A DNA stretch of 64,000 nt from an uncultured Mycoplasmatota bacterium. GTDB taxonomy: Bacteria > Bacillota_I > Bacilli_A > RF39 > UBA660. This document shows, piece after piece, positions 47,864-63,338 of the stretch (positions are counted from its first letter, which is position 1; every line of letters starts with the position of its first letter). Below the pieces are notes generated by a model that was not told the origin of the DNA, made no database searches, and saw nothing but the letters and a program-made list of their open reading frames with translations. The position numbers were made by a program, and so were the translations under genes. The stretch is taken from positions 1,592 through 65,591 of the forward strand of contig CASEIJ010000047.1 of assembly GCA_949288035.1 (NCBI GenBank), given 5' to 3'.

Positions 47864-50443
47864 CTAAAGACTTTTTCCTTTTTCGTTTTCTTCCATGGAT
47901 GCAAATAAATCATCAATATTTACTCTCGCATTTTCTAATGCTTGTTTTTGTTCATCCCTCTTTTGTTGTTCGAATGATTTTAAATCGTTTCCAAAATCAT
48001 CAATTTTTTGTTGTCTTTCTTCTTCGGCTTTTTTCTTAATTTCATCAACATCTGATACCATTGTTTGATAATTTGTACTGAATTTTGTAATTTGATCATC
48101 TAAATTCTGTAATTTACTAGCAACTTCACCTAATTCTTTTTCTTTTTGTTCAATTTGCTCTTTGTTTTTCTTTTCCGCATATCCTTCTGCTAATTGATGA
48201 AGACGCTCTATCTTTTCTTTCTTATCAGTAATCTTACTTAGTTCATTTTGAACCATTGGCATATTTTCAATTTCATCTAAATAAGAAATTCCACTTTTTA
48301 AAGAATTAATCTCCCATTCTAAATGAGTCTTCTGCGTTCCTAACTCACGAGCTTCCTTTTTGATATCAGCAATCGTTGACATCATATTATTTTCAGCTTC
48401 TTTTTTCTGAGTTTGAAGTGTTTCTTGTGCCTTTACTTCTGCTAATTGTTTTTGTAGATTTGCAATAATTTCATTTTGTTCTTGAATCTTTTCATTTTGT
48501 TCTTGAATCTTTTGTGCTTGATCATCAATTTGTTGCTTCTGACGAGCAAAGACAGTTTTTACTTGCTTATCTAACAAAAATTCTGGAGTCGGATTTGTTT
48601 TTTCCACTTTTTGAACCATTTCTGGTTGTGTTTGTTCCATTCCTGTTTGAACAACTTCTTTTTCTGGCTCTACTGTAATTATATTTGGACTTTCAACTTT
48701 TGTTTCCTCAGATTGTTTTACTTCTGTCTTTCCCTCTTTTTTCTCAGGTTGAATATTCATCATTTTATTTTTTTCTTCTTCAAAGAAAGTAATTAAATCA
48801 TTCTTATTATATTTCACAGCATCTGCAAAGGATTCATTTTTTAATTGACCTAAAATTGAATCTATTTTATTTAAAGCCATTTCTGGATTAAGACGAACAA
48901 GTCCATTTGTTCTTTCAAATAATTCCTTATATTTTAAATAAATTGCTTTATTATTTAACTCTGCTTCTGCTTTTTTAATACTGTTGCTCATTTGTTCTTT
49001 TTGTTGATCATCCATAGTCATAGAACATGATGGATATAATTTTTGAACTAGCTCTAACATACTTTGTTCTTTTTTAATATCATGTTCTTGATCATCACCA
49101 ATACTTGCATGAAGTTTATTTAATTCTGTCTCAACAACAGCTACATTTCCTTGAATATACTTAACATATTTTTCTTTCATATCTTGATATTTAGCGGTTA
49201 CGTGTTCAATACGATCTCCAATTAAAGCTTTTACATCAGGACTACATTCATTAATAGATTGAATTAGTTCAGTTGCATCATCATAATACTTTTGCATTTC
49301 TTCTAAAGTTGTATGTTGAATGGCAATTCCCATATGTGTAATTTTTAAACAATATCTACTAACTGTATTAATTTTATTAATTACTTCTTGTTTTTCTTGT
49401 TCAATCTGAGATAACTTAGCAGTTGCATTTTCTATCTTAGTAGGATCTTGTTGTTCTAATTCTACATTTTGTCCCGTTAATTTATACCAAATATTTCTCA
49501 ATTGTCTTCTAGGCCAATTTAAAAGATTTAATTTAATTGCCTTTAAACCTAATTTGTTTTCATTTCTTAACTCAACACGACCCTTTTTATAACTACCATC
49601 TGGTTGTTTTCCAAACTCTCTTATTTCCACAGCTTCCATTAAATCTTTGTTTTTATCGATTCCTCGTTTTATTTTTTCTAGAGTTATTTTATATGTTTCT
49701 CTTTGAGACGGTTTCATTCCTTCTACATATTTTTCTAACTTAGCTAATTGTTTTTCCCAATCTGCTTGTACTGATTTACTCTTCTTAAGTTGTGAACTAT
49801 CCGTCCAAATATTTCTTTTATTCACTCTTTTATTTGAAAATGATACTGTTCTTAATAATAATTCTGCTTCATCTAACTTCGTTTGTGAACCATGTGCTGT
49901 CAAACGAATTTTATTTTCTTCAGATATTCCTACCTTTTTCTTATTTTTATCTTCATCTTTTACAACGACTGGCTTTTCTTCTTTTGCTACTTCTTTTTCA
50001 GGCTCTTCAACGGTAAATGTAGGATTAATCATCTGGTATTCTTCCATGATACTTTTAATCTGCTCCTCTGTAAAACCTGCACGACGCAAAGCATTCTCAT
50101 AGCGACTCAGATGTTCCTCATTAGATAATCCTCTTGTCTGATCACGATCATTTAATAATACTTTTGTAACTTCTGATTCATCTTTAGATGCAGCTGCTTC
50201 TAAATTACGAATTAAATCATATTGCTCATTTAATTCTGCTTCGTAATTTGTAAATCCTAAAGCATGCGCTAAATTACTCGCTTCACGAAAAATATCTTCA
50301 TTGTTATGACGATCCACTACACTTCTTAAAGTATCTTCATGAATATCACTTTCATTGCCATTTACCATATCAAGCGCTTCTTGATATAGTCTTCTTTCTG
50401 TTTCATTTTCAAAATTACGGCCGTTAATTGTTGTTTCTGGCAT
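47864..50443 (-). CDS. 859-aa Glu/Lys/Gln-rich coiled-coil protein
   Basis: Long ORF with heptad-like low-complexity sequence. No enzymatic motif. Confidence 0.6.
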   Translation of the reverse strand: MPETTINGRNFENETERRLYQEALDMVNGNESDIHEDTLRSVVDRHNNEDIFREASNLAHALGFTNYEAELNEQYDLIRNLEAAASKDESEVTKVLLNDRDQTRGLSNEEHLSRYENALRRAGFTEEQIKSIMEEYQMINPTFTVEEPEKEVAKEEKPVVVKDEDKNKKKVGISEENKIRLTAHGSQTKLDEAELLLRTVSFSNKRVNKRNIWTDSSQLKKSKSVQADWEKQLAKLEKYVEGMKPSQRETYKITLEKIKRGIDKNKDLMEAVEIREFGKQPDGSYKKGRVELRNENKLGLKAIKLNLLNWPRRQLRNIWYKLTGQNVELEQQDPTKIENATAKLSQIEQEKQEVINKINTVSRYCLKITHMGIAIQHTTLEEMQKYYDDATELIQSINECSPDVKALIGDRIEHVTAKYQDMKEKYVKYIQGNVAVVETELNKLHASIGDDQEHDIKKEQSMLELVQKLYPSCSMTMDDQQKEQMSNSIKKAEAELNNKAIYLKYKELFERTNGLVRLNPEMALNKIDSILGQLKNESFADAVKYNKNDLITFFEEEKNKMMNIQPEKKEGKTEVKQSEETKVESPNIITVEPEKEVVQTGMEQTQPEMVQKVEKTNPTPEFLLDKQVKTVFARQKQQIDDQAQKIQEQNEKIQEQNEIIANLQKQLAEVKAQETLQTQKKEAENNMMSTIADIKKEARELGTQKTHLEWEINSLKSGISYLDEIENMPMVQNELSKITDKKEKIERLHQLAEGYAEKKNKEQIEQKEKELGEVASKLQNLDDQITKFSTNYQTMVSDVDEIKKKAEEERQQKIDDFGNDLKSFEQQKRDEQKQALENARVNIDDLFASMEENEKGKSL
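48471..48512. repeat. perfect 21-bp tandem duplication inside the coiled-coil gene
   Basis: TCATTTTGTTCTTGAATCTTT occurs twice, encoding the KIQEQNE repeat. Confidence 0.9.
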
Positions 50444-50448
50444 TTATA

Positions 50449-50760
50449 TCACTCCCCATTTGCTTTAATTACTTTACGCATTATATCTTTAATCTTAGCC
50501 CATTCTTCTTCAGTATCAAGACCAGTAATACGAATATCATCTGGGTTATTTGGATCACTTTCAACTCGAGATGAATATACTACCACCATACCATTTTTAT
50601 CTTTCTCATTAAAAGTATAAATGATATAATCTTTTCCATTTTCTTTTAACGTAAAATATAAAAGAACATCTGCAAGCTTCTCACTTCCATCTTCTCCCTT
50701 AATCATTATTTTTTCGTTTTCTTCTGTTTCAGTTACTGTTTGATTTAATTCTTTATCCAT
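50449..50760 (-). CDS. DUF1292-like small acidic protein
   Basis: Pattern ...DGSEKLADVLLYFTL..NGKDYIIYT......VVVYSSRV......I.TEEEWAKI, typical of that family. Confidence 0.55.
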   Translation of the reverse strand: MDKELNQTVTETEENEKIMIKGEDGSEKLADVLLYFTLKENGKDYIIYTFNEKDKNGMVVVYSSRVESDPNNPDDIRITGLDTEEEWAKIKDIMRKVIKANGE

Positions 50761-50928: not shown

Positions 50929-50962
50929 AAAAAAGTGGAGCCATAAGGCTCCATCAAAGGGT
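50929..50962. repeat. att-like direct repeat, copy A (most diverged)
   Basis: AAAAAAGTGGAGCC-ATAA-GGCTCCATCAAAGGGT. Confidence 0.75.
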
Positions 50963-51148: not shown

Positions 51149-52643
51149 TTATTTTTTAACAGTAATGTATTTTTGATTTCTTGCATTAATACTTCTCTTG
51201 TTTGTATATTCAAGCATACCCGCTTTTAATAATGGTTTAATAATACTATCGGCAACATATGTTTTAGATGATAATCCGACATATTCCCTTATTTCTTTTG
51301 ATGACTTTGGTATCTTACAATAATTTAAGACTTTTGCTTTTAATTCATCTATTGTAATATGTTCCATGTTTTGTGCACCTGTTTGTGAATTTTCAGTAAT
51401 TGGAGTATTTCTAAATATAACTTTAAAGCTATCTCTTTCTTCGTAAAATTCAGGTTCCGGTAATCCATATTTTTTCATTTCTCTTTTCATTGTTGGTATT
51501 CCAGAGTGCCTATTTTCAATTACAGATCCTTTTTCTTCTAAAATCCTTACAATTGTAGGATTTCTAGATTCCATAGTAGTAGCTGTTCCTAATTTTTCTA
51601 ATTTATTTGTACCATATAGATTACCGGGATTAATAATTTCTATTCTATCGTTATACATATTGACTGATACATATGCATTTTCTGTTTGAGTACTATAATC
51701 TCTATGAATTAATGAATTTGCTACGGCCTCTCTTAACGCTTCCATTGGGTATTCAGTTCTATTAATTCTTTCACCATTAGAATTAATGATTACACTTATT
51801 TTCATATTTCTTCTTAAAAAATTCATAGTCCCTTCAAGCATTTCTTCTATTGTTCCTTCAACTCGTTTATTATCAATAAATCTTTCACCAAATTCTCCTG
51901 TATCTCCAAGTTCATTTCCAGGAACCACAACGCATGCAACAAACAGCTGTGGATAAAAACTTTGTGGAAATTCACCAAATATCATTGTACCGGCTAAAGT
52001 TGGATACGCTTGATTATCGCTTGTGTCAATAATACCACATAATTTTAAACTTTTTTCAAAATCATTTTTGGCAAAATGAGGTTTTTCTATCTTTATTTTA
52101 TCAATATAACTATTTAACGATTCATTATTTAAGTCATTTATTGTTGCACCTCTGGTAGGCCTTTTATCTTCAAATATATGATCATTATAACTTTGAAGAG
52201 AATATATTTCATAATCAGTCATCGGTTCATCTCTATCGCCTATTCTTATATAAGATCTTTTTTGTAATCCTTTGGGTTTATAGTAACAAGGTTTTTTATT
52301 TTGAGCTATTTCATCTATTTTTACAGCCAATAATTTTTTCCTTCATAATCGAATGGTAATATATCAGGTCTAACTGCTGGTTCCATAGAATCACTGCAAA
52401 TAGATGATACTTTCTTTTGCAAATCATTTAAGTCATAAACACCATCTATACTAAATTTATTTTCTTCATTTACACCAAATATAATAATTTCACCATATTA
52501 TTGGAAAAACTTGAAATAGTATCATAACATTTCTTAGGAAAACCATCCAAGGCTTTTTTGGCTTCAATTTTATTAGTTTCTGTTTAATACCTTTTTAATT
52601 ATTCAATAGTGTTTATTGTTTCAACTTTTTCCAAACGAATCAT
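51149..52643 (-). pseudogene. disrupted AlbA_2 (Schlafen-like) + HATPase_c_4-type ATP-binding/DNA-binding protein
   Basis: The 393-aa ORF lacks its N-terminus. Upstream frames read MIRLEKVETINTIE*, ...IEAKKALDGFPKKCYDTISSFSNN and GEIIIFGVNEENKFSIDGVYDLNDLQKKVSS...DYEGK. Two stops and two frameshifts separate them, one at an A6 run (52332-52337). Confidence 0.65.
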
Positions 52644-52962: not shown

Positions 52963-52997
52963 AAAAAAAGTGGAGCCATATGGCTCCTTCAGGGGGT
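52963..52997. repeat. att-like direct repeat, copy B
   Basis: AAAAAAAGTGGAGCC-ATAT-GGCTCCTTCAGGGGGT. Confidence 0.8.
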
Positions 52998-53245: not shown

Positions 53246-54526
53246 TTACTGCTTGTCATCAATATTTAAAAATTGTGCTACTTCTGTAATTAATGGATTA
53301 TCTTGTTTAAGAAATTCATCAACATGTGATGCCAATATTCTTTTAACAGAATCTTCATTCCTTTCTTCTTCTATAACAGTTTGATCAAAAAAGTCCTTTT
53401 TATTATTTGGTACCTTTGTTAAATTAACATTTAATATTCTATTTAGATCACTTAATGGAACATATAGCTCAATACAATCTTTTTGTATAGAACATTCATC
53501 ATTTGTATCACCATCTTTTATTATAATACACTTTTTTCCATGTGCTTCTAAAGCTTTTTTTAAGGATTCTGCATTACTTTCTCCACCTGCTGGTAATAGA
53601 ATATAATTTGATAATACTCCTAACAAACTAAGACTTTTTTTATACCAAGGCAAATCGAATTTACCTTCTACTAGTAAGTATATTTTAGAATCTGTACTAT
53701 CAAGTGCATCTAATAATTTTGATATATTGTCATATTTGTCTGTATATAAAGGGATTGTATTAGAATCATTTGATACTTCTAAAACAGTTACAGAATGAGT
53801 ACTTATTAGTGTTTGCCCTATTTTTGATTGTAATTCTTTAATCATGTTATTGCAATTATTTATTGAGAATGAATTTTCAATCTCATCAATACCTAAAATA
53901 ACATTATCGTAACTATTACCAACCAACAGTGCATACATTAAATTTTTTTGGAATCCACTTCCCCTCGCTTCCACTGGTATGCCATCACTTGTAATTGAAT
54001 ATTTTATAGCAGCATCATATTTAAAAGCTTCTTTGCCAACTATGTCTGTTTTTTCATCGTTTATAATTAATAATTCAGAATCAATGCTTTCAATCACATC
54101 GTCAACTGATTTTTGGACGATTTCTTTCAATTTATCAATCAATTCTGATGGTGTAGTAGATAACGCTTTAGAAATTGCTAATTGATTTAATATATTTTTA
54201 GGATCATATACCGATACAGGAATATAAATATATCTAAAATAATCTAAGTTTGATATATTTTCTGGTTGCGAGCTCAATTTATATGATGCACCACTATAAA
54301 TCTTTTTATAAAAATTATTATTAAACAATATCCCAATTTCTACTGGAAGACTAGTATCTCTAACAAATACCTTATCAATTTTTTCTTGATTAAAAAATAT
54401 ATCAAGTGCTTGTAAAATAGTAGACTTACCAGCATCATTCTCTCCTATTATGATATTATGTTTTTCAATTGGTATCGTTTCTTTTTCAAATGCTTTAAAA
54501 TTTTTTATATAAATTTGTTCTATCAT
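53246..54526 (-). CDS. ABC-type ATPase fused to a TOPRIM domain (OLD-family / PARIS AriA-AriB-like)
   Basis: Walker A GENDAGKST, signature-like RGSGFQK, Walker B ILGIDEIE, H-loop THS. C-terminal TOPRIM-like LLVEGKFD ... PAGGESN ... IIIKDGD. Start at MIEQIYIKNF with a strong RBS GGAGGAG. Confidence 0.7.
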   Translation of the reverse strand: MIEQIYIKNFKAFEKETIPIEKHNIIIGENDAGKSTILQALDIFFNQEKIDKVFVRDTSLPVEIGILFNNNFYKKIYSGASYKLSSQPENISNLDYFRYIYIPVSVYDPKNILNQLAISKALSTTPSELIDKLKEIVQKSVDDVIESIDSELLIINDEKTDIVGKEAFKYDAAIKYSITSDGIPVEARGSGFQKNLMYALLVGNSYDNVILGIDEIENSFSINNCNNMIKELQSKIGQTLISTHSVTVLEVSNDSNTIPLYTDKYDNISKLLDALDSTDSKIYLLVEGKFDLPWYKKSLSLLGVLSNYILLPAGGESNAESLKKALEAHGKKCIIIKDGDTNDECSIQKDCIELYVPLSDLNRILNVNLTKVPNNKKDFFDQTVIEEERNEDSVKRILASHVDEFLKQDNPLITEVAQFLNIDDKQ

Positions 54527-54657
54527 TTTAACTCCTCCTAACAAAAAAGTGCAAATAAATACTTCTGTAAAGCCTTTACTAGCACTTTGTTTATGTAATA
54601 TATTAACATTTTTTCCATTTTTTTCAATAAATTTGTACATAATATAATCTGATACGT

Positions 54658-56250
54658 TTAAACCTTACTATCTTCCTTTTCTATTATAGGTTTAATTTCT
54701 ATTGAATACTTCCCTTTGCTACGACCAGATCCGGTAGTTATAGAAAAATCAGTCAAACGATTAATTGTAATTTTTTTATTTAGGTAAATAAAATGTGCTA
54801 CATAAGGTTCATCAAACCAATCTGAACCTGTAAATAAAGATTCATAAATTGAAATATTATTTTTTATAGAATCTTTTAGCTCTTGTTGGGCCCATTTTCT
54901 AATTTTTGATAAATCTGTAACATTATTTAAATCTAACATCTCCCCAATTTCATCAATATAATAAGAAGTAACTTTATCTTTATCAATAGTTAGCATCTCT
55001 ATCATATCATCATTTTTAAATTTTTCTTTTTCATTACTATAAAGAAGTAACGCTAAAAAAATATAATCAGGTTCTTCCAATATATCAGAAAATGCTTTTA
55101 TAAAGGAATCATGTGTTAATTTTTGAATTGTGTATCCGGTTGATCCTTCTATTTTAACAGAAACCCCAGTATTATCTATAATGTCAAATTTCTTTCCTAC
55201 TAAATCATTTTCATCTAAAGAATATTCTTTTTCTAATAAATACTCTTGTGAAAAATTTGATCGTACTAAATATGCATCTGCTTTTGGATAAACTTTTTTG
55301 TTACTTAAATGGGATAAAACTCTGTTTGATACTTTAATCATATATATATTGTCTAAGTTCTCTAATCCATTTGTTATTTCATGCCATATAGGTGACTTCT
55401 TATTTTTATTAAACCTTCTTGAAATATCAAATTCTTCCTTATCTCCTAAAAAAGTATTAACATTAGATATATTCCTTTTCATAAGTGAAAAGAAGTCTGA
55501 CTCCATTTTTGAATATTTAACTTGTAATTGGCCACGTTTATGTTCAGTATTTCCTTTCTTTGATATATTCCATGCTTGTAATGATAATTTACCAACATGT
55601 AATCCTTTGCCATTACTTTCTTTAATATTAAAATTAATAATTTCTTTAGCAGAAACCCAAAAACCATTATCTACACTACCATGGTAAATATAATCTACTC
55701 TACTATTATGTCTTCCTATAAAAAGGAAGCGTTTTATTAATTGTACTTGATTATTATTTAAAAATTTTTGTAAATTATCAAATTTTGCTGGATATTTTTC
55801 ACGAAATTCTTTTGAAGTGAATCTAGACATGATATTTCCATCAGAATCTTTTTCTTTGGAACCAGAACCATCTAATGTACCATCAGCCCATAAGAAAAAT
55901 CGAAAATCATTACATACTTCATCCGGCGCCAAAAGATTATTTTTTATATATGCTACAAAATCTTCGCATTTTTCTTGATGTACACTATTTCCACTTCCTA
56001 TTTTTAAACTAATGGCATATTCATTTTCATTTATATACAAATAGAAGTCTTGCTTTAATTTAGTATTAGGTTCATACATTGCATTGATTTCGGTAGTATT
56101 ATTAATATTTATATTGTTATCTTTAGCAATATATTTAATAAACTCCTTTAGGTTATTATTTAAATCTGAAACTTTTTTATCCTTTAGTGCCTGTACAATG
56201 TTCAACTCATTTTTATTGCCATGTTTATTGCTTCCAATTAGTCTATTCAT
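54658..56250 (-). CDS. probable restriction endonuclease (uncharacterised, 530 aa)
   Basis: Sits 8 nt downstream of two m5C MTase genes. Two PD-(D/E)xK-like stretches (KQD-x13-ISLKIG, and KADAYLV ... GVSVKIEG). No family recognised by eye. Confidence 0.45.
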   Translation of the reverse strand: MNRLIGSNKHGNKNELNIVQALKDKKVSDLNNNLKEFIKYIAKDNNININNTTEINAMYEPNTKLKQDFYLYINENEYAISLKIGSGNSVHQEKCEDFVAYIKNNLLAPDEVCNDFRFFLWADGTLDGSGSKEKDSDGNIMSRFTSKEFREKYPAKFDNLQKFLNNNQVQLIKRFLFIGRHNSRVDYIYHGSVDNGFWVSAKEIINFNIKESNGKGLHVGKLSLQAWNISKKGNTEHKRGQLQVKYSKMESDFFSLMKRNISNVNTFLGDKEEFDISRRFNKNKKSPIWHEITNGLENLDNIYMIKVSNRVLSHLSNKKVYPKADAYLVRSNFSQEYLLEKEYSLDENDLVGKKFDIIDNTGVSVKIEGSTGYTIQKLTHDSFIKAFSDILEEPDYIFLALLLYSNEKEKFKNDDMIEMLTIDKDKVTSYYIDEIGEMLDLNNVTDLSKIRKWAQQELKDSIKNNISIYESLFTGSDWFDEPYVAHFIYLNKKITINRLTDFSITTGSGRSKGKYSIEIKPIIEKEDSKV

Positions 56251-56258
56251 TTTATCAC

Positions 56259-57206
56259 CTACAAATATTCCATAAAATTCTTTCCTATTTCAGTTATTAA
56301 GGGAACTACAACACTATTACCTATTTGTTTATAAGACTGCATATTATTTTTTTTAATCTTATATGTTTCTGGAAAGCCCATTATTTTTAAACACTCTTTT
56401 TCAGTTAATTTCCTACTATATTTTACAACAACCGGTATATTATTTCCACCTGTTCCCATTTTTGCTGTTAAACACGGAGATATACCATCACTTCTAAAGT
56501 TGCATTTTGAAGCTCTTATTTCATTAGCAATTATATATTTTCCTTTCATATATCTATTACTTTTTTTATAATTATTAAGAAATTTATTTATATTAGTAAT
56601 GGCAATAGGGGATGATTGATATTCTTTTATCTTTTTAGGTTCTATAATATCTTCTAAAGTGTATTTCAATTCACATTTCTCCGGGAACTTAAATGGTTTA
56701 TTATATGTATCTTTTCTTATTGCTACACAATACCAGCGATTTCTATTTTGTGGAATCCCATAATCCTTAGCATTCATTACTTTTGTATTAACCACATAGC
56801 CTAATTCTTCTAATGTATTTATTATTACTGTAATAGTTCTTCCGGAATCATGGCTGACTATACCTGCTACATTTTCTAAAAATACAATTTTAGGTTTAGT
56901 ATATTTTATTATTCTGGCAACTTCAAAAAACATTGTTCCCCTTGAATCATTAAATCCCATTCTTTTACCTGCTATACTAAAAGGTTGACATGGAAAGCCG
57001 GCACAAAGAACATCATATTTAGGTATTTTTTTTTCGTCTACTATTGTGATATCTCCATAAGATTTTTCATTAAAATTCTTTTCATATACTTTACAAACAT
57101 CAAGATTATTATCACAAGAGAACACACATTTTCCACCGTTTTTCTCCATTGCTATTCTAAATCCACCTAGACCACAAAATAAATCTATAAATTTAAACTT
57201 TTTCAT
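56259..57206 (-). CDS. DNA (cytosine-5)-methyltransferase
   Basis: Motif I FCGLGGF, IV GFPCQPFS, VI ENV, VIII QNRNR, X GNSVVVP. Confidence 0.93.
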   Translation of the reverse strand: MKKFKFIDLFCGLGGFRIAMEKNGGKCVFSCDNNLDVCKVYEKNFNEKSYGDITIVDEKKIPKYDVLCAGFPCQPFSIAGKRMGFNDSRGTMFFEVARIIKYTKPKIVFLENVAGIVSHDSGRTITVIINTLEELGYVVNTKVMNAKDYGIPQNRNRWYCVAIRKDTYNKPFKFPEKCELKYTLEDIIEPKKIKEYQSSPIAITNINKFLNNYKKSNRYMKGKYIIANEIRASKCNFRSDGISPCLTAKMGTGGNNIPVVVKYSRKLTEKECLKIMGFPETYKIKKNNMQSYKQIGNSVVVPLITEIGKNFMEYL

Positions 57207-58281
57207 AGAATTCCTCCATCATACTATTTATTATTTGAGTAATTACTGGTGGGCTAACTGCATTTCCTGCCTGCTTATATAATTGAGTATCACTCATACC
57301 ATTTTTCTTTACATTGTTTACAAATTTTTTATCGAATCCTTGAATTCTTAAAGCTTCATATGGAGTTAATTTTCTTATTCTAAATTCATTCATATCAGTA
57401 ATTATTATTTTAGGGCTATCAGATCTAGCTAATAGTGTCGGAGATATCCCATTTATTGAATATACTCTTCTTTGTCTGTCTAAATCATTATGGATTTCTT
57501 TTGGTAAATCAAATTGTTTAATTATTTTTCTTTGCTTTTTAGACATAAGTTCTTTTTTATTAATTCCTTTTAAATATTTATTCACTTTAAATGTATTTAA
57601 ATAGTATTTACTATCAACTTTTTCATCTAAGATATCACTAATATATTTTGTCTTTACATTAAATGAGACATTATTAAAAAAATTCATTGTCATTAATTTA
57701 TTTTCATTAGCCCATTTCTTAATTTCATTAATTTTTTGATTTCTTTTATCTGTTTCAAACTTTTCTGTTTTATGATTATATACCCCAACAATATATGTCC
57801 GTTCTCTACTTTGTGGAACGCCAGCCTCATTAGAATTTATAACAGTAATATCAAATGTATAATTACATTTTGATATATTTCTCAAAATTGTTTTTATAGT
57901 ATTACCATTATTATGACTTATAAGATTTTTTACATTTTCTAATAATATATATTTAGGTTTTTTTTCTTTTATTATTCTTATTATATCAAAAAAAAGTGTT
58001 CCTCTTATATCATTAAATCCTTTTCTTTTTCCTGCTACTGAAAAAGATTGACATGGGAAACCAGCACATAGCAAATCATGATCTGGAATATCTTTTTCAT
58101 TGATTTGTTTTATATCTCCATGCATATTTTTTAAAGAAAAATTATATCCATAAGTCTTTATGGCAAAGCTATCAATTTCTGAAGCAAAAACAATTTCATA
58201 ATTTAAATTAGATTTTTCTAATCCCTTTTCAAAGCCACCGATTCCAGAAAATAGTGAAACAACTTTAATTTTACTTCCCAT
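57193..58281 (-). CDS. DNA (cytosine-5)-methyltransferase
   Basis: Motif I FSGIGGF, IV GFPCQSFS, VI ENV, VIII QSRER, X GNAVSPP. Start at MGSKIKV (RBS GGAGGAG). Overlaps the next MTase by 14 nt. Confidence 0.93.
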   Translation of the reverse strand: MGSKIKVVSLFSGIGGFEKGLEKSNLNYEIVFASEIDSFAIKTYGYNFSLKNMHGDIKQINEKDIPDHDLLCAGFPCQSFSVAGKRKGFNDIRGTLFFDIIRIIKEKKPKYILLENVKNLISHNNGNTIKTILRNISKCNYTFDITVINSNEAGVPQSRERTYIVGVYNHKTEKFETDKRNQKINEIKKWANENKLMTMNFFNNVSFNVKTKYISDILDEKVDSKYYLNTFKVNKYLKGINKKELMSKKQRKIIKQFDLPKEIHNDLDRQRRVYSINGISPTLLARSDSPKIIITDMNEFRIRKLTPYEALRIQGFDKKFVNNVKKNGMSDTQLYKQAGNAVSPPVITQIINSMMEEFYEKV

Positions 58282-58737
58282 GTTACTCCTCCTGTACAAG
58301 ATTTTTCATACATTTAACATTATACCATCAATGATTATTTTTTCATAGAACACTAATACAATTATTTTTTATTCTACTTTAATAACAATACTTATAACAT
58401 CACTAAACGGGTATGGACCTCCATCATAGGAAATTATAGCAAATCCCCAAGTACTATACATTTCCATTGCTTGCTAATAACTTAAATTTATAAAAATAAG
58501 CGATAACTTCTTCCCCATTGGGGAAAAAATAGGTAATTTTTTGAAAATAAAAATATAAAATTTGGAAAGTTTCTTGAATGTTTTTTGGTATATAAAACGA
58601 GATAATTTGGGGTATTGATTTACTAACTTGCTATGTTAAAATATAGTAGAATAGCAAAAATTATAAAATTTAATGAAACAAATTAAATTTTGAGAAGTTT
58701 ATGACTTCTCTTTTTTGTTTTATAGGAAGGAGCGTTT

Positions 58738-59007
58738 ATGGATAACTTTGTGATGGTTCCAACACATTTAATTAATTCTAAAATACCTAGAAGTGCAATG
58801 TTACTTCTAGGTATTTTAAATTCTAATGCTAGACAATTAGGTTATGCTTATGGAACAAATAAGTATTATGCTAAGCAATTGGGTTGTTCAACAAGAACTA
58901 TTACTAACCTACTAAAATATTTAGCTGATAACAATTATATAACTATTATTAATGGTAATAGCTTTAAACGAAGAATCTATATTAGAAATAAAGTTCTAAT
59001 TACTTAG
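58738..59007 (+). CDS. small helix-turn-helix protein (island regulatory/replication-type)
   Basis: YYAKQLGCSTRTITNLLKYLADNNYI HTH. Candidate promoter TTGATT-16-TAAAAT about 100 nt upstream. Confidence 0.55.
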   Translation: MDNFVMVPTHLINSKIPRSAMLLLGILNSNARQLGYAYGTNKYYAKQLGCSTRTITNLLKYLADNNYITIINGNSFKRRIYIRNKVLIT

Positions 59008-59120
59008 AAAATAATTTCTATATATGTAGAACTATATTTCTTACATAATAAATAAGTTAAATATATAAATTAACAATATAATTACAAGATCTTGCAAGAT
59101 GAGGTCTTGGGGAGGTTTTA

Positions 59121-59570
59121 ATGAAAATAAATAATTATATTTTAGTTCATGGTAAAATAATTAATATCAAGAATAATGTTGATGAAAAATATATTTGGTT
59201 TGATATATCGAAAGATGAATATTTTAAAGATAAGGATGGAAAGTTAAAAAATTATCCATCCTTTTTTAGTGCTAGAATATCTAAAACAATTGCCAATAAA
59301 TATATTCTTGATACCAATTTTGAAATTGTTGTAAAAGGTATTCCTAAAGGTTATTTAGATAAAAATGGATATAGACAAAACTATATACATGCTACGGAAA
59401 TTAATGGTGTAGAAACTAAAGAAGATATACTAAATCAAGTTATTAGTTATGATATCGATGGAATTATGTTATGGAACGGAAAAAGATGTGAATCGATTCC
59501 TACTACTAAAGAAGAACAATTAGAACTTCAGAAAATGATAAACGAAATATGCGGAAAGGATGATGAATAA
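59121..59570 (+). CDS. hypothetical protein (possible OB-fold)
   Basis: ORF with RBS GGGGAGG. The N-terminus is loosely SSB-like (NNYILVHGKII...). No firm motif. Confidence 0.45.
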   Translation: MKINNYILVHGKIINIKNNVDEKYIWFDISKDEYFKDKDGKLKNYPSFFSARISKTIANKYILDTNFEIVVKGIPKGYLDKNGYRQNYIHATEINGVETKEDILNQVISYDIDGIMLWNGKRCESIPTTKEEQLELQKMINEICGKDDE

Positions 59571-59800
59571 TGAATGCTAAAGAAACATTAGAATTAATTT
59601 CTAAACAATGGTGTAATTTGGATGATTTAATGAAATTATCTAATCTTGGAATTAATAATGCTTTCAAGTTGAAGAAAGAAATAAAAACACTTTGTGAAGA
59701 AAAAGGCTACCTACTTCCAAAAGGTTTATTACCTATGTGTGAAGTGGTAGCTTATTTAAAAATTAATATTGATTACTTAAAAGAGATGAGTAACAACTAA
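59570..59800 (+). CDS. DUF3173-like small protein (candidate excisionase/recombination directionality factor)
   Basis: 76 aa, directly upstream of the integrase. Pattern ..DLMKLS.LG...AFKLKKEIK....EKGY.LPKG.LP...V, resembling DUF3173 proteins that precede integrases in streptococcal integrative elements. Confidence 0.45.
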   Translation: MNAKETLELISKQWCNLDDLMKLSNLGINNAFKLKKEIKTLCEEKGYLLPKGLLPMCEVVAYLKINIDYLKEMSNN

Positions 59801-59884
59801 TCGTAAACTAGTAAGACATTTTATTTTGTTATACAATTGGCTCGCATGATTGATTTATTTGTGTGGCCAGTAAAGGAGGATTAT

Positions 59885-60997
59885 ATGGCTGTTAAACAAG
59901 TAAGTAAAGAAGAAGCAACTAAAGATGGTCGCAGGTGGATATTTTATAATTCTTTATATTTAAGTGGTGGAACTAGAAAAAAATATAAATCTAAAAAGTT
60001 TGCGACTAGAAATGAAGCTGTTAAAGCCGAACAAAATTTTATGTCTAAAGTTGAGAAAAAAGAAATTAATGTTACAGACATGACTTTTAAAGATTTATAT
60101 GAAGAATTTTACGCTTATAAATCAGATAAAGGCAAATCTACAACCATGAGAACATATCGTGAAAGAATTACTTCTTTAAAGATGCTAGAAAAAGTAAAAG
60201 TAAGAGATTTTAATATTACTCATTATTTAAAATGGCGTACTATGATTTCCAATAAACCAGTTGCTGTTAAAACTAAAAATCATTATCATAAATTTTTAAA
60301 AGAAATATTGAACTATGGTACGAAATGGCATGACTTTAATTTCACTTCTGTGTATAACAGAATGGAAAAGTTTACTGATCCTAACGCTGTACCAAAGGAA
60401 ATGGATTATTACACTTATGAAGAATTTAAAAAGTTTATTGCTTGTGAAGATGATTTAAAGTTTATTTGTGTATTTGAAATATTATATTATTGTGGTCTTC
60501 GTAGAGGAGAACTTAGAGGTCTTACTTGGGATAACATTGATTTTGAAGATAAGACTTTATCTATCGTTAAAAATGTTGTAAATGAAAATGGCGATGGTGG
60601 TTATTGGAAGATTACTACTCCTAAAACTCGTACCTCTACTAGAACAATACCAATGCCAGATATTTTAGTAGATCATTTAAAAGAATATAAAAAACAAGTT
60701 TCTAAATATTATAACTTTAATCAAAAATGGTTTGTCGTTGGTGATGTTTCTCCACTACACCCAGATGTTCTTAGAAAAAGAAAAAATAAAAATGCAATGA
60801 ATGCTGGTTTAAAACAAATTAGAATTCATGATTTTAGACATTCTTGTGCATCTTTACTCATTAATAATGGTGCTAATATTATGATTGTTGCTAAATACTT
60901 AGGGCACGCTAAAATTGATGAAACATTAAATACTTATTCTCACCTATTTAAAAATAAAATGGATGATATTGTTAATATGATGAATCATTTAAAATAG
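59885..60997 (+). CDS. tyrosine recombinase / phage-type integrase
   Basis: CGLRRGELRGL (Arg I), HDFRHSCAS (His-x-x-Arg), LGHAKIDETLNTYSHL (His/Tyr nucleophile). Start at MAVKQV (RBS AAGGAGGA). Confidence 0.92.
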   Translation: MAVKQVSKEEATKDGRRWIFYNSLYLSGGTRKKYKSKKFATRNEAVKAEQNFMSKVEKKEINVTDMTFKDLYEEFYAYKSDKGKSTTMRTYRERITSLKMLEKVKVRDFNITHYLKWRTMISNKPVAVKTKNHYHKFLKEILNYGTKWHDFNFTSVYNRMEKFTDPNAVPKEMDYYTYEEFKKFIACEDDLKFICVFEILYYCGLRRGELRGLTWDNIDFEDKTLSIVKNVVNENGDGGYWKITTPKTRTSTRTIPMPDILVDHLKEYKKQVSKYYNFNQKWFVVGDVSPLHPDVLRKRKNKNAMNAGLKQIRIHDFRHSCASLLINNGANIMIVAKYLGHAKIDETLNTYSHLFKNKMDDIVNMMNHLK

Positions 60998-61091: not shown

Positions 61092-61124
61092 AAAAAGTGG
61101 AGCCTTTCGGCTCCTTCAGGGGGT
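61092..61124. repeat. att-like direct repeat, copy C (chromosomal junction; terminator hairpin of the transcript downstream of recG)
   Basis: AAAAAGTGGAGCC-TTTC-GGCTCCTTCAGGGGGT. Confidence 0.8.
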
Positions 61125-61216: not shown

Positions 61217-63208
61217 TCAATCTAAATGAACAATGCTTTTTTCAAATTCTGTAAAGCGTTTTTCTTCCTCAAAATCAAAATATATTTTATTTTGTCTAAA
61301 TAATTCTGCATCTTCTTTGGCATGTTTGACAATTGAAAAATCTTTATAAATATCTGCTAATTGAAAACTCATGTCACCACTTTGTCTTACTCCAAAAAAA
61401 TCTCCACTTCCACGTAAACGAAAATCTTCTTCACTAATCTGAAACCCATCTGATACTTTTGTTAAAATTTGTAATCGTTCTTTATCATAGTTTGAAACAA
61501 GTAAACAATAGCTTTGTAATTCATTACGACCAACTCTTCCTCGTAATTGATGTAATTGCGATAAACCAAAACGTTCGGCATTAAAAATTACGATCATGGT
61601 CGCATTGGTTACATCAACTCCTACTTCAATGACGGTTGTACTAATTAGAATTTGAATTTTATTCTCTTGAAATTCACTCATGATTTTTTCTTTTGTATTG
61701 CCATCTTGTTTCCCATGTAACATATCAATTGTATAACGTTTTCCAAAAGCTTTTTTCATATTCTCATACATCGTATCCACTGCTTTGGTATCACTTTCTT
61801 CATTTTCTTCAATTAATGGTGCCACGACATAAATTTGATGTCCTTTTTGTAATTCAACATACATTTTTGTTAATACTTCTTTTAATTGTTTTTCAGAAAA
61901 CAATTGTGTTTCAATTTCTTTTCTTCCCGTTGGTCTTGTTTTAATATTGCTTACTTCCATATCTCCATAAATTGTTAAAGCATATGTTCTAGGAATTGGG
62001 GTTGCACTCATATATAATATATCTGGTGTTAAGCCTTTATTTTTTAATTCTCTTCTTTGTTGTACTCCAAATCGATGTTGTTCGTCTGTAATTACTAACC
62101 CTAAATTATGATAAGTTACTTTTTCACTAATCAAAGCATGTGTTCCAATTACAAGATCTATCTTTCCTTCAAAAATATCCTTTTGGATTTGTTTTTTTTC
62201 ACTGGCTTTTAACTTGCCTGTTAATAAAGCTACTGTCATATGATATGGTTCTAATAGTTCTTTTGCTTTTTGATAGTGTTGAATCGCTAAAATCTCTGTT
62301 GGAGCCATAAACGCTGTCTGATATCCACTTAAAAAATTCATATAACTAGCGATGAACGCTAAAATTGTTTTTCCACTTCCAACATCACCTTGAATTAAAC
62401 GATTCATACGAGATGAGCTTTCTAGATCATGGAATATATCTTGTACTGCTTGTCCTTGATCTACCGTTAATGAAAAAGGTAACTGTTGAATCATATTCTG
62501 TACTTTTTGATATGAGATTTTTCTTTGTAATCCTGTTTCTTTTTTTCTAACTTCTTTTAATAAAGTCATTTTATAAAAAAACATAAATAGCTCTTCATAC
62601 TTTAATCTTGTTCGAGCTTTTTTTAATGTTATGGTCGAAGTAGGATGATGAATTTCTAACACACTTTCTTCTTTAGATGGAAAATGATATTTTTCTTCTA
62701 TCGTTTTTGGAATAAAACTAGGTCTTGGTTTCGCAAGTTTCAATGCTTCATCAATCCACTGTATCATTTTCTTATTAGTTATTTTAGAAGTTAAATGGTA
62801 AATACTTTCTACGTATTCTTTTTCTAGTTTACCAAATTGAAGTTGTGAAGCTACGATTTGATTTTTCTTTGGCTTCCATTTTCCAAATACTGTAACTTCT
62901 GTTCCTGGTTTTAAATTCTTTTTTAAATATGCACGATTAAATATCACAATATCAATCCAAGCATCACGCGTCTGTATACGAAAGTTCATTCGTTCCATAT
63001 GTTTTTTAAAGTAAACAACACGAGGAATATTTGTTACTGTTCCATCGATAATGACTGAATCATCTTCTTTTGCTTCTTTCATATTGGTTCTTCTAATTAG
63101 TTCATAGCGATATGGATAATATTCTATAAAATCTTCTAATGTATCAATTCCTAAATGAGATAGTGCCTGTTTTGTTTTAGGTCCTATTCCTGTTAATGTT
63201 TCTAACAT
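61217..63208 (-). CDS. recG: ATP-dependent DNA helicase RecG
   Basis: Wedge/OB N-terminus, motif I GDVGSGKT, DEQHRFGV, SATPIPRT, QLHQLRGRVGR. Start probably MLETLTG (ATG 63208). Confidence 0.95.
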   Translation of the reverse strand: MLETLTGIGPKTKQALSHLGIDTLEDFIEYYPYRYELIRRTNMKEAKEDDSVIIDGTVTNIPRVVYFKKHMERMNFRIQTRDAWIDIVIFNRAYLKKNLKPGTEVTVFGKWKPKKNQIVASQLQFGKLEKEYVESIYHLTSKITNKKMIQWIDEALKLAKPRPSFIPKTIEEKYHFPSKEESVLEIHHPTSTITLKKARTRLKYEELFMFFYKMTLLKEVRKKETGLQRKISYQKVQNMIQQLPFSLTVDQGQAVQDIFHDLESSSRMNRLIQGDVGSGKTILAFIASYMNFLSGYQTAFMAPTEILAIQHYQKAKELLEPYHMTVALLTGKLKASEKKQIQKDIFEGKIDLVIGTHALISEKVTYHNLGLVITDEQHRFGVQQRRELKNKGLTPDILYMSATPIPRTYALTIYGDMEVSNIKTRPTGRKEIETQLFSEKQLKEVLTKMYVELQKGHQIYVVAPLIEENEESDTKAVDTMYENMKKAFGKRYTIDMLHGKQDGNTKEKIMSEFQENKIQILISTTVIEVGVDVTNATMIVIFNAERFGLSQLHQLRGRVGRNELQSYCLLVSNYDKERLQILTKVSDGFQISEEDFRLRGSGDFFGVRQSGDMSFQLADIYKDFSIVKHAKEDAELFRQNKIYFDFEEEKRFTEFEKSIVHLD

Positions 63209-63338
63209 ATCATTCACCAATCACATTATATCAAACAAAGGTTCGTTTTTCTATTTATTTCTACTTTTTTTCTCATTTTTTCACATTTTTCTTTCTAAAA
63301 TACTTGACTTTTTTCTTCTTTCAGATTATTATAAAAGC

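What the first reader, a model, noticed from the sequence alone, without database searches (positions are those of the whole stretch)
53246..54526. Compact ABC-ATPase/TOPRIM (OLD / fused-PARIS-like) gene appended to a restriction-modification cluster
This 426-aa protein has a complete ABC/SMC-type ATPase head: GENDAGKST, RGSGFQK, ILGIDEIE and THS. Its C-terminal ~130 aa carry TOPRIM hallmarks (LLVEGKFD, PAGGESN, IIIKDGD) resembling OLD nucleases and DUF4435/AriB. It is markedly shorter than the classical OLD proteins I know of. It has no UvrD/GajB-like, retron or separate AriB partner. It sits co-directionally 131 nt after the nuclease-like gene of an RM cluster, with its own strong RBS and a possible internal promoter (TTGAAA-16-TAATAT). 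An ATPase-TOPRIM effector tied to a two-methylase RM module on an integrase island may be a composite or two-layer defence arrangement. I cannot tell from sequence alone whether this variant has been described.
Basis: partly seen in the sequence, partly recalled or inferred. Interest (0 to 1): 0.72.

Follow-up and report, generated by a model that had tools for sequence, protein, structure and literature searches.

The report
Compact OLD nuclease behind AciI-like RM
The gene is a real, intact but unusually short member of the OLD family of ATP-driven defence nucleases; it shares a small mobile island with a restriction-modification system rather than being built into it, and its closest relatives are instead paired with a reverse transcriptase.

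Summary
A 426-aa ORF on the minus strand (54526..53246) has a complete ABC-ATPase head and a C-terminal TOPRIM with invariant Glu and DxD. It starts 131 nt after a restriction endonuclease gene.

It belongs to a small, metagenome-only subfamily of compact OLD-family proteins (about 420-435 aa). This subfamily aligns end to end with canonical 540-630-aa OLD-like proteins (hhalign probability 100%, E 4.6e-48). It lacks about 130 aa of the insert inside the ATPase.

The "fused PARIS" and "RM-tied composite" readings are not supported:
- No DUF4435/AriB signal was found.
- Nine other homologue lineages lack an adjacent RM system.
- Two close relatives of the AciI-like M-M-R module (70-78% REase identity) occur without any OLD.

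In the window, integrase, HTH, M1, M2, R and OLD form an 8.1-kb island. It is bounded by copies of a 28-nt terminator/att-like repeat next to the putative recG, a hotspot where other defence cargo stacks in tandem.

Unexpectedly, the window protein nests inside a clade whose members sit exactly 4 nt downstream of a 530-aa UG7/DRT8-type reverse transcriptase. My literature searches found no description of this RT-OLD pairing.

Best reading: an autonomous second-layer OLD nuclease, probably derived from an RT-coupled effector. It is a new variant of a known kind and of moderate interest.

The parts
53246..54526 (-). Compact OLD-family gene (426 aa). ABC ATPase is about res 1-255 (54526-53762); TOPRIM plus C-terminal helical region is about res 262-426 (53743-53249).
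54527..54657 (-). 131-nt spacer between the REase stop and the OLD start. AGGAGG RBS at 54539-54534; promoter-like TTGAAA-16-TAATAT at 54627-54600 (not above chance); no terminator.
54658..56250 (-). AciI-family Type II restriction endonuclease (530 aa)
   Evidence: PADLOC REase_II PDLC03402, full length, 3.6e-144; 46% identity to a protein that UniRef names AciI, from an Arthrobacter citreus plasmid
56259..57206 (-). C5-cytosine DNA methyltransferase M2 (315 aa)
   Evidence: Pfam DNA_methylase 6.9e-96; matches the C-terminal half (382-699) of the fused 703-position MTase model PDLC03217
57193..58299 (-). C5-cytosine DNA methyltransferase M1 (362-368 aa; overlaps M2 by 14 nt)
   Evidence: Pfam DNA_methylase 2.5e-88; matches the N-terminal half (22-372) of PDLC03217
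58319..58346 (-). Best promoter-like site upstream of M1 (ATGAAA-16-TATAAT with TG). Candidate operon promoter, consensus match only.
52970..52997 (-). 28-nt att-like repeat, which is also the intrinsic-terminator hairpin about 250 nt after the OLD stop. It marks the island boundary and the point where homology to other islands breaks.
61097..61124 (-). Second copy of the att-like repeat, between the putative recG 3' end and the integrase. The other island boundary.
50935..50962 (-). Third copy of the repeat, closing a separate 2-kb cassette that carries the HATPase_c_4 gene
59837..60997 (+). Tyrosine integrase of the island
   Evidence: Pfam Phage_integrase 3.5e-28
58738..59800 (+). Island accessory genes: HTH_36 protein (58738-59007) and two small ORFs (59121-59570, 59570-59800)

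Best explanation
The gene encodes a compact OLD-family nuclease. An N-terminal ABC/SMC-type ATPase head carries a much reduced inserted (dimerisation) region. It is joined to a TOPRIM two-metal nuclease domain and a short C-terminal helical region with an invariant lysine.

It is the last gene of a probably single transcription unit, M1-M2-R-OLD. This unit sits on an 8.1-kb integrase island inserted at the putative recG terminator. The RM genes form a self-sufficient AciI-like Type II system, with two C5 methylases for an asymmetric site.

The OLD is most likely a separate, autonomous second layer of defence. By analogy with characterised OLD proteins, ATP binding and hydrolysis by a dimerised head would license the TOPRIM site to nick or cleave nucleic acid (DNA or tRNA) when infection is sensed. 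That would stop phage replication or kill the cell.

The adjacency to RM is cargo stacking on a mobile island, not a dedicated RM-OLD machine. Phylogenetically this copy derives from a clade whose members are coupled to a UG7/DRT8-type reverse transcriptase. It has lost that partner and gained its own strong RBS.

Shown here: domain identity, conserved catalytic residues, island anatomy, non-conservation of RM linkage, and the RT linkage of relatives. Inferred: nuclease activity, substrate, trigger, autonomy and co-transcription.
For: Identity:
- AAA_15 scores 3.8e-24, above its cut-off.
- 27 of 42 family members hit Pfam OLD-like_TOPRIM, best 1.2e-8.
- The AF2 model has pLDDT 87. Its best PDB folds are GajA (1.5e-14), the retron-Eco8 OLD effector (1.9e-13) and TsOLD 6p74 (7.9e-13), aligned over about 470-530 columns.
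- hhalign against canonical-length ATPase-TOPRIM proteins gives probability 100%, E 4.6e-48, with 432 columns end to end. It pairs VEGxxD, DxD, IE(N/L)Y and the C-terminal Lys.
- Walker A/B, the RGSG signature, the H-loop and TOPRIM E287/D338/D340/E353/K395 are invariant or nearly so.

Independence from RM:
- Homologues P0012, P0019, P0046, P0052, P0057 and P0094 have no RM or RT gene adjacent.
- REase relatives at 78% and 70% identity have M-M-R with no OLD.

Island anatomy:
- A 28-nt repeat occurs at 61097, 52970 and 50935, with 0 matches expected by chance.
- The same repeat also occurs in islands of other metagenome contigs; in L006 a pair brackets the integrase-to-OLD block.
- Homology to those islands stops in the repeat core, at window 52983 or 52963.
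- The only minus-strand terminator-like site between 58800 and 52300 is this hairpin.

RT ancestry:
- P0002, P0003 and P0040 each lie 4 nt after a roughly 530-aa RT.
- The RT tested (L014) matches PADLOC Drt8 at 1e-117.
- The window protein is sister to P0002 inside that clade.
- Homology starts at or within a few nt of the OLD ATG, with no detectable homology upstream.

Precedent for single-gene OLD defence: Vc OLD is a DNA nickase (PMC12392090), and P2 Old is an ATP-activated tRNA anticodon-stem nuclease (PMC12445682).
Against: - There is no functional data of any kind.
- The window protein's own PF20469 score (17.6 bits) is below Pfam's cut-off of 23.2.
- The isolated C-terminal domain has OLD, AriB and GajA TOPRIM folds among its best PDB hits, but at non-significant E-values of 0.08-0.9.
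- Because the copy nests within an RT-coupled clade, the effector may normally need the RT for activation or restraint. An RT-less copy could then be inert.
- The gene is physically co-operonic with the RM. The M-M-R-OLD block is 98.5-99.8% identical across islands whose integrases are only about 91% identical, and per-gene differences from the window are 0-3 nt in L005 and L010. The four genes therefore do travel together in this lineage.
- Only 10 homologue lineages could be examined for context.
Confidence: 0.62

Rival explanations
1. RM-coupled guard. The OLD is functionally wired to the AciI-like RM. It might fire when a phage anti-restriction protein or a RecBCD/AddAB inhibitor neutralises restriction, much as PARIS senses Ocr and P2 Old responds to lambda. 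The four genes would then be one two-layer system.
For: It is co-directional with the RM, and no terminator lies between R and OLD. The four genes are nearly identical as a block across islands with diverged integrases. The best PADLOC hit of the N-terminus is AriA. In relatives, the slot after the AciI-like R gene also holds another defence candidate, PDC-S06.
Against: The linkage was seen in only one near-clonal lineage. Nine other OLD lineages lack an adjacent RM and two RM relatives lack an OLD. The AriA hit covers only the generic P-loop N-terminus, res 1-68. No DUF4435/AriB-type domain was found.
Confidence: 0.12
2. Orphaned effector. The protein is the nuclease effector of a UG7/DRT8-type RT system that lost its RT on recombination behind the RM. 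Without the RT it is inactive or unregulated, and it is carried passively by the island.
For: The window OLD is sister to RT-coupled P0002 and nests within the RT-coupled clade. The RT and OLD genes keep a fixed 4-nt spacing while diverging: the RTs are 66-74% identical to one another and the three RT-linked OLDs 52-71%. No RT homologue was found anywhere in the 64-kb window.
Against: All invariant catalytic residues are intact. The copy has acquired a canonical AGGAGG RBS. RT-free homologues occur in at least six other lineages, so RT-independence recurs in this family. The protein is identical in 18 contigs from several samples.
Confidence: 0.15
3. Not a defence nuclease. It would be an ATPase-driven protein with a different role, such as island maintenance or addiction, DNA repair, or a case where the TOPRIM is dispensable as reported for E. 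coli YbjD.
For: Some OLD-family proteins have non-defence or TOPRIM-independent roles: Cran1 in archaea (PMC12796447) and YbjD (PMC13261556). The TOPRIM domain is minimal, and the domain-only fold match is not significant.
Against: Neighbourhoods are consistently defence islands or mobile elements: Hachiman, MmeI-like, Abi_2, AbiE and Shedu-type (SduA_C) genes, recombinases. The TOPRIM acidic residues are invariant across the family.
Confidence: 0.08

Closest known systems
Class 1 OLD nucleases (P2 Old, Thermus scotoductus OLD 6p74, Vibrio cholerae Vc OLD)
   Same: [quoted passage not shown] No helicase, retron or AriB partner in this locus. TsOLD is among the best fold matches (7.9e-13). Single-gene defence is documented for this class (PMC12392090, PMC12445682).
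   Different: 426 aa, against the 500-600 aa length range used to delimit Class 1 (PMC12392090 methods). About 130 aa of the ATPase insert is missing. Sequence similarity to PDB OLDs is confined to the P-loop N-terminus. It is embedded in an RM operon or defence island, whereas Class 1 genes are described as not proximal to defence genes (PMC10568477). Sister lineages have an RT partner.
Class 2 OLD / Gabija GajA
   Same: Best overall fold match (8u7i_A at 1.5e-14 and 8x5i_D at 2.6e-14). Same ATPase-TOPRIM order.
   Different: No GajB/UvrD-like helicase in this locus or in any homologue neighbourhood examined. It is shorter rather than longer than Class 1, so the Class 2 TOPRIM helical insert (PMC10568477) is not expected.
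Class 3 OLD / retron Eco8 effector (type I-B retrons)
   Same: An ATPase-TOPRIM effector encoded next to a reverse transcriptase, in the relatives. The Eco8 effector is a top fold hit (1.9e-13).
   Different: The window copy has no RT. The relatives' RT is UG7/DRT8-type (PADLOC Drt8 1e-117), with no retron RT model among the 25 best PADLOC hits shown. The NCBIfam retron_eff_Eco8 model scores 29 bits against a cut-off of 250. The Eco8 effector is about 680 aa.
Class 4 OLD / PARIS (AriA + AriB, or fused)
   Same: The N-terminal AAA_15 ATPase gives the best PADLOC hit to an AriA model (9.2e-26). AriB appears among weak TOPRIM fold hits.
   Different: The AriA hit covers only res 1-68. No DUF4435 was found in any of 42 members. 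The C-terminal domain hits PADLOC Old and GajA more often than AriB.
DRT8 (UG7 reverse transcriptase systems)
   Same: Relatives P0002, P0003 and P0040 sit 4 nt downstream of an RT. The RT tested (L014) matches Drt8 over its full length, and all three RTs keep an FVDD motif. UG7 RTs are known to pair with nuclease effectors (PMC9226505).
   Different: The described UG7 partners are a PD-(D/E)XK nuclease or none (PMC9226505), plus Cap17 (PMC10952713). No OLD-type partner turned up in my searches. The window locus has no RT at all.
AciI-type Type II restriction-modification (the neighbouring genes)
   Same: The REase is 46% identical to the protein named AciI and matches PADLOC REase_II over its full length. 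The two C5 methylases match the two halves of a fused 703-position methylase model.
   Different: The methylase is split into two overlapping genes. Recognition specificity has not been tested.

Membership tests
OLD family (ABC ATPase + TOPRIM nucleases) | N-terminal ABC/SMC-type ATPase with Walker A, signature, Walker B and H-loop | tested here: met
   AAA_15 scores 86.4 bits against a cut-off of 32.1. G28/G33/K34, RGSG (G189), D214-E215-x-E217 and H244-S245 are invariant or at least 90% conserved.
OLD family (ABC ATPase + TOPRIM nucleases) | C-terminal TOPRIM domain with a conserved Glu and a DxD metal-binding motif | tested here: met
   E287 and D338-G-D340 are invariant. PF20469 is hit by 27 of 42 members, best 1.2e-8, though the window protein itself scores 17.6 against a cut-off of 23.2. 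hhalign aligns the TOPRIM motifs with canonical-length proteins at probability 100%. The domain-only Foldseek search ranks OLD C-terminal regions first, but with E of 0.08 or more.
OLD family (ABC ATPase + TOPRIM nucleases) | Dimerisation domain inserted in the ATPase | tested here: inconclusive
   About 130 residues present in canonical proteins are absent between window res 71 and 130. The model keeps only a two-helix hairpin, H109-124 and H127-146. Oligomeric state is unknown.
OLD family (ABC ATPase + TOPRIM nucleases) | ATPase and metal-dependent nuclease activity | not testable with these tools
   Requires biochemistry.
Class 1 OLD | Single gene without a conserved partner (no helicase, RT/ncRNA or AriB) | tested here: inconclusive
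   Met for the window locus and for six homologue lineages. However, three lineages, including the two closest, have an RT partner.
Class 1 OLD | Length of about 500-600 aa, as used to delimit the class (PMC12392090) | tested here: not met
   426 aa; family range about 420-435 aa.
Class 2 OLD / Gabija | Adjacent UvrD/PcrA-like helicase GajB | tested here: not met
   The gene is flanked by the REase and by the att/terminator. No helicase is adjacent in any locus examined.
Class 3 OLD / retron I-B | Adjacent retron RT and msr/msd ncRNA | tested here: not met
   No RT in the window. No Rfam family reaches gathering score near the gene. The retron_eff_Eco8 model scores 29 bits against a cut-off of 250.
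Class 4 OLD / PARIS (including fused AriAB) | AriB-type DUF4435 TOPRIM, separate or fused | tested here: not met
   No DUF4435 hit in 42 members. A PADLOC AriB model is hit by 1 of 25 C-terminal domains at 2e-3.
DRT8 (UG7) | UG7-class reverse transcriptase in the locus | tested here: not met
   tblastn of the relatives' RTs against the window gave no hit better than E = 0.004 over about 90 aa at 24-27% identity. The feature is met in relatives L014, L041-L046.
MADS (methylation-associated defence system) | MAD3 ATPase equivalog | tested here: not met
   NF047739 scores 33 bits against a cut-off of 420, N-terminus only.
AciI-like Type II RM (neighbouring genes) | REase homologous to AciI, plus C5 methylation capacity for both strands | tested here: met
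   Both methylases keep the GFPCQ and ENV motifs. Specificity is not testable here.

The most novel reading that the evidence does not exclude
The compact OLD proteins are the exchangeable nuclease effector of an undescribed two-gene defence system, a UG7/DRT8-type reverse transcriptase plus a compact OLD. This would amount to a further genomic-context class of OLD proteins, distinct from retron-linked Class 3. On this reading the window copy is a natural RT-less derivative that has been re-housed behind an AciI-like RM. Either the effector is self-sufficient, or it has been re-wired to a new upstream sensor, the RM system or the cellular consequences of restriction failure.
Probability: 0.3. 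Interest if true: 0.7.

Novelty: new variant of a known kind. Interest (0 to 1): 0.45.

Why it matters
OLD nucleases are a major and still poorly understood defence family, whose classes are defined by genomic context. This subfamily falls outside the 500-600 aa length filter used to collect Class 1 OLDs. No full-length match was seen in the PADLOC models checked, and the family was found almost only in metagenomes, so it has probably been overlooked.

Its near-minimal ATPase insert makes it a candidate 'minimal OLD' for structure-function work. One clade occurs with a UG7/DRT8 RT, with an RM system, or with neither. That gives a natural experiment on whether an OLD effector needs a partner to sense infection.

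The RM adjacency itself is ordinary defence-island stacking.

Tried and rejected
- tblastn against the plasmid and phage collections gave no match. Four viral-contig scans, with the window OLD, P0040, P0094 and the L014 RT, found no relatives.
- phmmer and hmmsearch against PDB sequences detect only the P-loop N-terminus. The C-terminal profile alone gives only a non-significant hit to the small protein 1t6t, with the VEGK..D and D.D motifs aligned (E = 0.13).
- The 'internal promoter' idea cannot be evaluated. Promoter-like sites are at chance density in this 29% GC sequence.
- No RT remnant exists upstream of the OLD. blastx of the spacer against the RTs gives nothing, and blastn homology to the RT loci begins at the ATG.
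- MADS, Gabija, retron and PARIS memberships were considered and rejected (see the membership table).
- Composition does not single out the OLD from the RM genes: 26.5% GC against 24.7-27.5%.
- My per-gene comparison with L006 was mis-registered by an indel and is disregarded.
Full report
**1. Observation**

The window carries a 426-codon ORF on the minus strand, from the ATG at 54526 to the stop at 53246.

The upstream co-directional gene ends at 54658, which leaves a 131-nt spacer. AGGAGG lies 7 nt before the ATG. A longer 464-aa reading from 54640 is what gene callers report (P0001). However, the homologues listed are mostly 420-435 aa and in the alignment begin at MI..IYIKNF, so 54526 is the better start.

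The proposed internal promoter exists as a consensus match (54627-54600). Such matches are at chance density here, with 53 found against 53.4 expected.

**2. What the protein is**

- Pfam gives AAA_15 above threshold (86 bits against 32). OLD-like_TOPRIM (PF20469) scores only 17.6 bits, below its cut-off of 23.2.
- PADLOC and NCBIfam hits (AriA, GajA, AbiLi, Old, MAD3, Eco8 effector) mostly cover the N-terminal P-loop region or generic ATPase regions. The NCBIfam hits are far below their curated cut-offs.
- A search of 5.8 billion proteins found about 117 clusters of mostly full-length relatives (31-76% identity, typically 420-435 aa). Similarity then drops abruptly to classical OLD-sized proteins at E of about 1e-11.
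- A profile search of 1.84 billion representatives found only 48 hits at E ≤ 1e-30, many of them fragments. After that comes the broad OLD superfamily of mostly about 520-630 aa.
- In a 42-sequence alignment, the Walker A residues G28, G33 and K34, Walker B D214 and E217, Q238 and S245 are invariant. So are the TOPRIM residues E287, G288 and D291, D338-G339-D340, E353, Y355 and K395. G189 of the RGSG signature, E215 and H244 are at least 90% conserved.
- 27 of the 42 members hit PF20469, best 1.2e-8.
- The AlphaFold model (pLDDT 87, pTM 0.75) finds GajA, the retron-Eco8 OLD effector and T. scotoductus OLD as its best PDB matches. E-values are 1e-14 to 1e-12 over about 470-530 aligned columns.
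- A profile-profile comparison with 14 canonical-length relatives gives probability 100%, E 4.6e-48 and 432 columns from end to end. Five of the 14 were checked against Pfam: all five have full-length AAA_15, two score PF20469 above its cut-off and one just below it. The comparison pairs VEGxxD, GG, DxD, IE(N/L)Y and the C-terminal Lys.
- The size difference is concentrated between window residues 71 and 130, where canonical proteins carry about 130 extra residues. This is the insert inside the ATPase, which in TsOLD and GajA is the dimerisation domain (PMC10568477). The model keeps only a two-helix hairpin there.

The isolated C-terminal domain folds confidently (pLDDT 90). Its best PDB matches are the X. 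campestris OLD C-terminal region, TsOLD and AriB, but at non-significant E-values of 0.08-0.35. Against PADLOC it hits Old in 6 of 25 members, GajA models in up to 3, and AriB in 1. No member hits DUF4435.

The protein is therefore a divergent, compact member of the OLD family. It is not a fused PARIS.

**3. The neighbours**

The upstream gene (54658-56250) matches PADLOC REase_II PDLC03402 over its full length (3.6e-144). It is 46% identical to a protein that UniRef names AciI, from an Arthrobacter citreus plasmid.

The two C5 methylases (56259-57206 and 57193-58299) each match one half of a fused 703-position methylase model. That is the expected arrangement for an asymmetric site. Both keep the GFPCQ and ENV motifs. 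This is a complete AciI-like Type II system.

**4. Island anatomy**

A 28-nt sequence, GTGGAGCCnnnnGGCTCCnTCAnnGGGT, occurs three times with none expected by chance:
- at 61097-61124, between the 667-aa ORF 61217-63220 (recG by synteny with L005-L007) and the integrase;
- at 52970-52997, about 250 nt after the OLD stop;
- at 50935-50962.

It is a GC-rich hairpin followed by a T-run. It is also the only minus-strand terminator-like site between 58800 and 52300.

Other metagenome contigs carry the identical OLD protein. In L006, copies of the repeat bracket the integrase-to-OLD block. Their homology to the window stops in the repeat core, at window 52983 or 52963.

The unit int-HTH-two small ORFs-M1-M2-R-OLD is therefore an 8.1-kb integrative island at the putative recG terminator. 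Beyond it, different contigs carry different cargo:
- AAA_21+RloB, SduA_C (Shedu-type) and HEPN genes;
- AbiEi/AbiEii;
- HipA/HIRAN;
- in the window, a 2-kb cassette with a frameshifted AlbA_2/HATPase_c_4 gene.

The RM-OLD block is 98.5-99.8% identical between islands whose integrases are about 91% identical. Gene by gene it differs from the window by 0-3 nt in L005 and L010. The four genes therefore move together in this lineage and are probably one transcript.

**5. Is the RM linkage conserved?**

No.
- Only the window lineage has an adjacent RM.
- P0012 sits with no RM or RT gene at the same recG hotspot.
- P0019 is flanked by oppositely oriented genes, near a Hachiman-like pair.
- P0052 and P0046 sit beside serine recombinases and HTH genes.
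- P0057 follows the PPDK gene.
- P0094 lies near an Abi_2 gene.

Conversely, REase relatives at 78% and 70% identity have M-M-R with no OLD. One of them is followed instead by a 730-aa PDC-S06 candidate.

**6. The unexpected finding**

Three lineages each lie exactly 4 nt downstream of a roughly 530-aa reverse transcriptase: P0002 (76% identity to the window protein), P0003 (71%) and P0040 (56%).
- The L014 RT matches PADLOC Drt8 over its full length (1e-117). The next-best model scores 4e-36.
- All three RTs keep an FVDD motif.
- They are 66-74% identical to one another. The corresponding OLDs are 52-71% identical, so the pair has co-diverged.
- In a neighbour-joining tree, the window protein is sister to P0002 inside this RT-linked clade.
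- DNA homology between the window and the RT loci starts at or within a few nt of the OLD ATG, with no detectable homology upstream.
- The window contains no RT.

The published description of UG7/DRT8 lists a PD-(D/E)XK nuclease partner or no partner (PMC9226505). Cap17 has also been tabulated with DRT8 (PMC10952713). Searches for DRT8, UG7 and Toprim found no report of an OLD partner. Absence from the searchable library is not proof of novelty.

**7. Mechanism**

- **Established for relatives.** Class 1 Vc OLD is a DNA nickase whose defence needs both ATPase and nuclease residues (PMC12392090). P2 Old is an ATP-hydrolysis-activated nuclease that severs tRNA anticodon stems (PMC12445682). GajA nicks DNA, and higher ATP concentrations strongly inhibit that cleavage (PMC10568477).
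- **Inferred here.** A dimerising ABC head gates a two-metal TOPRIM site (E287, D338, D340 and E353, with K395 as the candidate catalytic Lys). Activation on infection damages phage or host nucleic acid. The protein acts as a second layer behind an AciI-like RM on the same mobile island, without physical coupling.
- I put about 0.93 on 'OLD-family ATPase-nuclease' and about 0.62 on the whole statement, including autonomy.

Rivals:
- an RM-coupled guard (0.12);
- an orphaned RT-dependent effector (0.15);
- a non-nuclease or non-defence role (0.08).

**8. Novelty and score**

The gene is a new variant of a known kind, a compact OLD subfamily.
- It lies outside the 500-600 aa window used to collect Class 1 OLDs (PMC12392090).
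- The C-terminal half of the window protein matched no PADLOC model, and the listed full-protein hits are mostly N-terminal.
- No match was found in the plasmid, phage or viral-contig collections searched.

The RM adjacency is ordinary defence-island stacking. What raises the interest is the RT-OLD pairing in sister lineages, together with the natural with-RT, with-RM and solitary series. Interest 0.45.

Noticed in passing
L014:5401-8275; L041:4404-7275; L044:1777-4642 (also L015, L042, L043, L045, L046): A conserved two-gene unit: a roughly 530-aa UG7/DRT8-type reverse transcriptase (FVDD motif) followed 4 nt later by a compact OLD. I found no description of this pairing in the literature I could search.
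   Followed up: partly
window 61097-61124, 52970-52997, 50935-50962: Three copies of a 28-nt hairpin/terminator sequence that behave as att sites. They delimit an 8.1-kb int-RM-OLD island and an adjacent 2-kb cassette at the 3' end of the putative recG. Copies of the same repeat occur in islands of other metagenome contigs (L005, L006, L008).
   Followed up: yes
window 51149-52640 (- strand): The HATPase_c_4 gene (393 aa from a TTG start) appears to be 5'-degraded. AlbA_2-like N-terminal segments (e.g. GEIIIFGVNEENKFSIDG) lie upstream in two other reading frames, suggesting a frameshifted pseudogene. An independent assembly (L008) has the same sequence.
   Followed up: partly
L037:5761-7953 (also L038-L040): In relatives of the AciI-like RM module, the slot right after the REase gene (36-nt gap) holds a 730-aa protein matching the PADLOC candidate PDC-S06 (7.7e-35) instead of an OLD.
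   Followed up: no
L005:11941-17501; L006:11841-13157; L007:12037-17106: Downstream of the identical RM-OLD block, different contigs carry different cargo. L005 has AAA_21+RloB, T1RH-like_C, SduA_C and HEPN. L006 has AbiEi/AbiEii. L007 has HipA_C, HIRAN and a second 572-aa AAA_15 protein. This makes it a variable defence hotspot next to recG.
   Followed up: no
L016:7001-8278: A 63%-identical OLD homologue (P0012) occupies the same recG-proximal hotspot without an RM, next to an 89-aa integrase fragment, a MazG-like gene and an SLFN-g3 helicase.
   Followed up: no
window 53246-54640 (- strand): Automatic gene calls extend the OLD ORF 38 codons upstream (464 aa) into the spacer. Homologue alignment and the AGGAGG RBS support the 426-aa start.
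   Followed up: yes
window 47864-50760 (- strand): An 859-aa, highly charged, repeat-rich ORF with no family match on record follows a DUF1292-like 103-aa ORF, just outside the third att-like repeat. Function unknown.
   Followed up: no
L014:4382-5374: A 330-aa RNase_T (DnaQ-like exonuclease) + BRCT protein ends 27 nt before the RT of one RT-OLD pair. It is absent from the other RT-OLD loci, so it is probably not part of the system.
   Followed up: no
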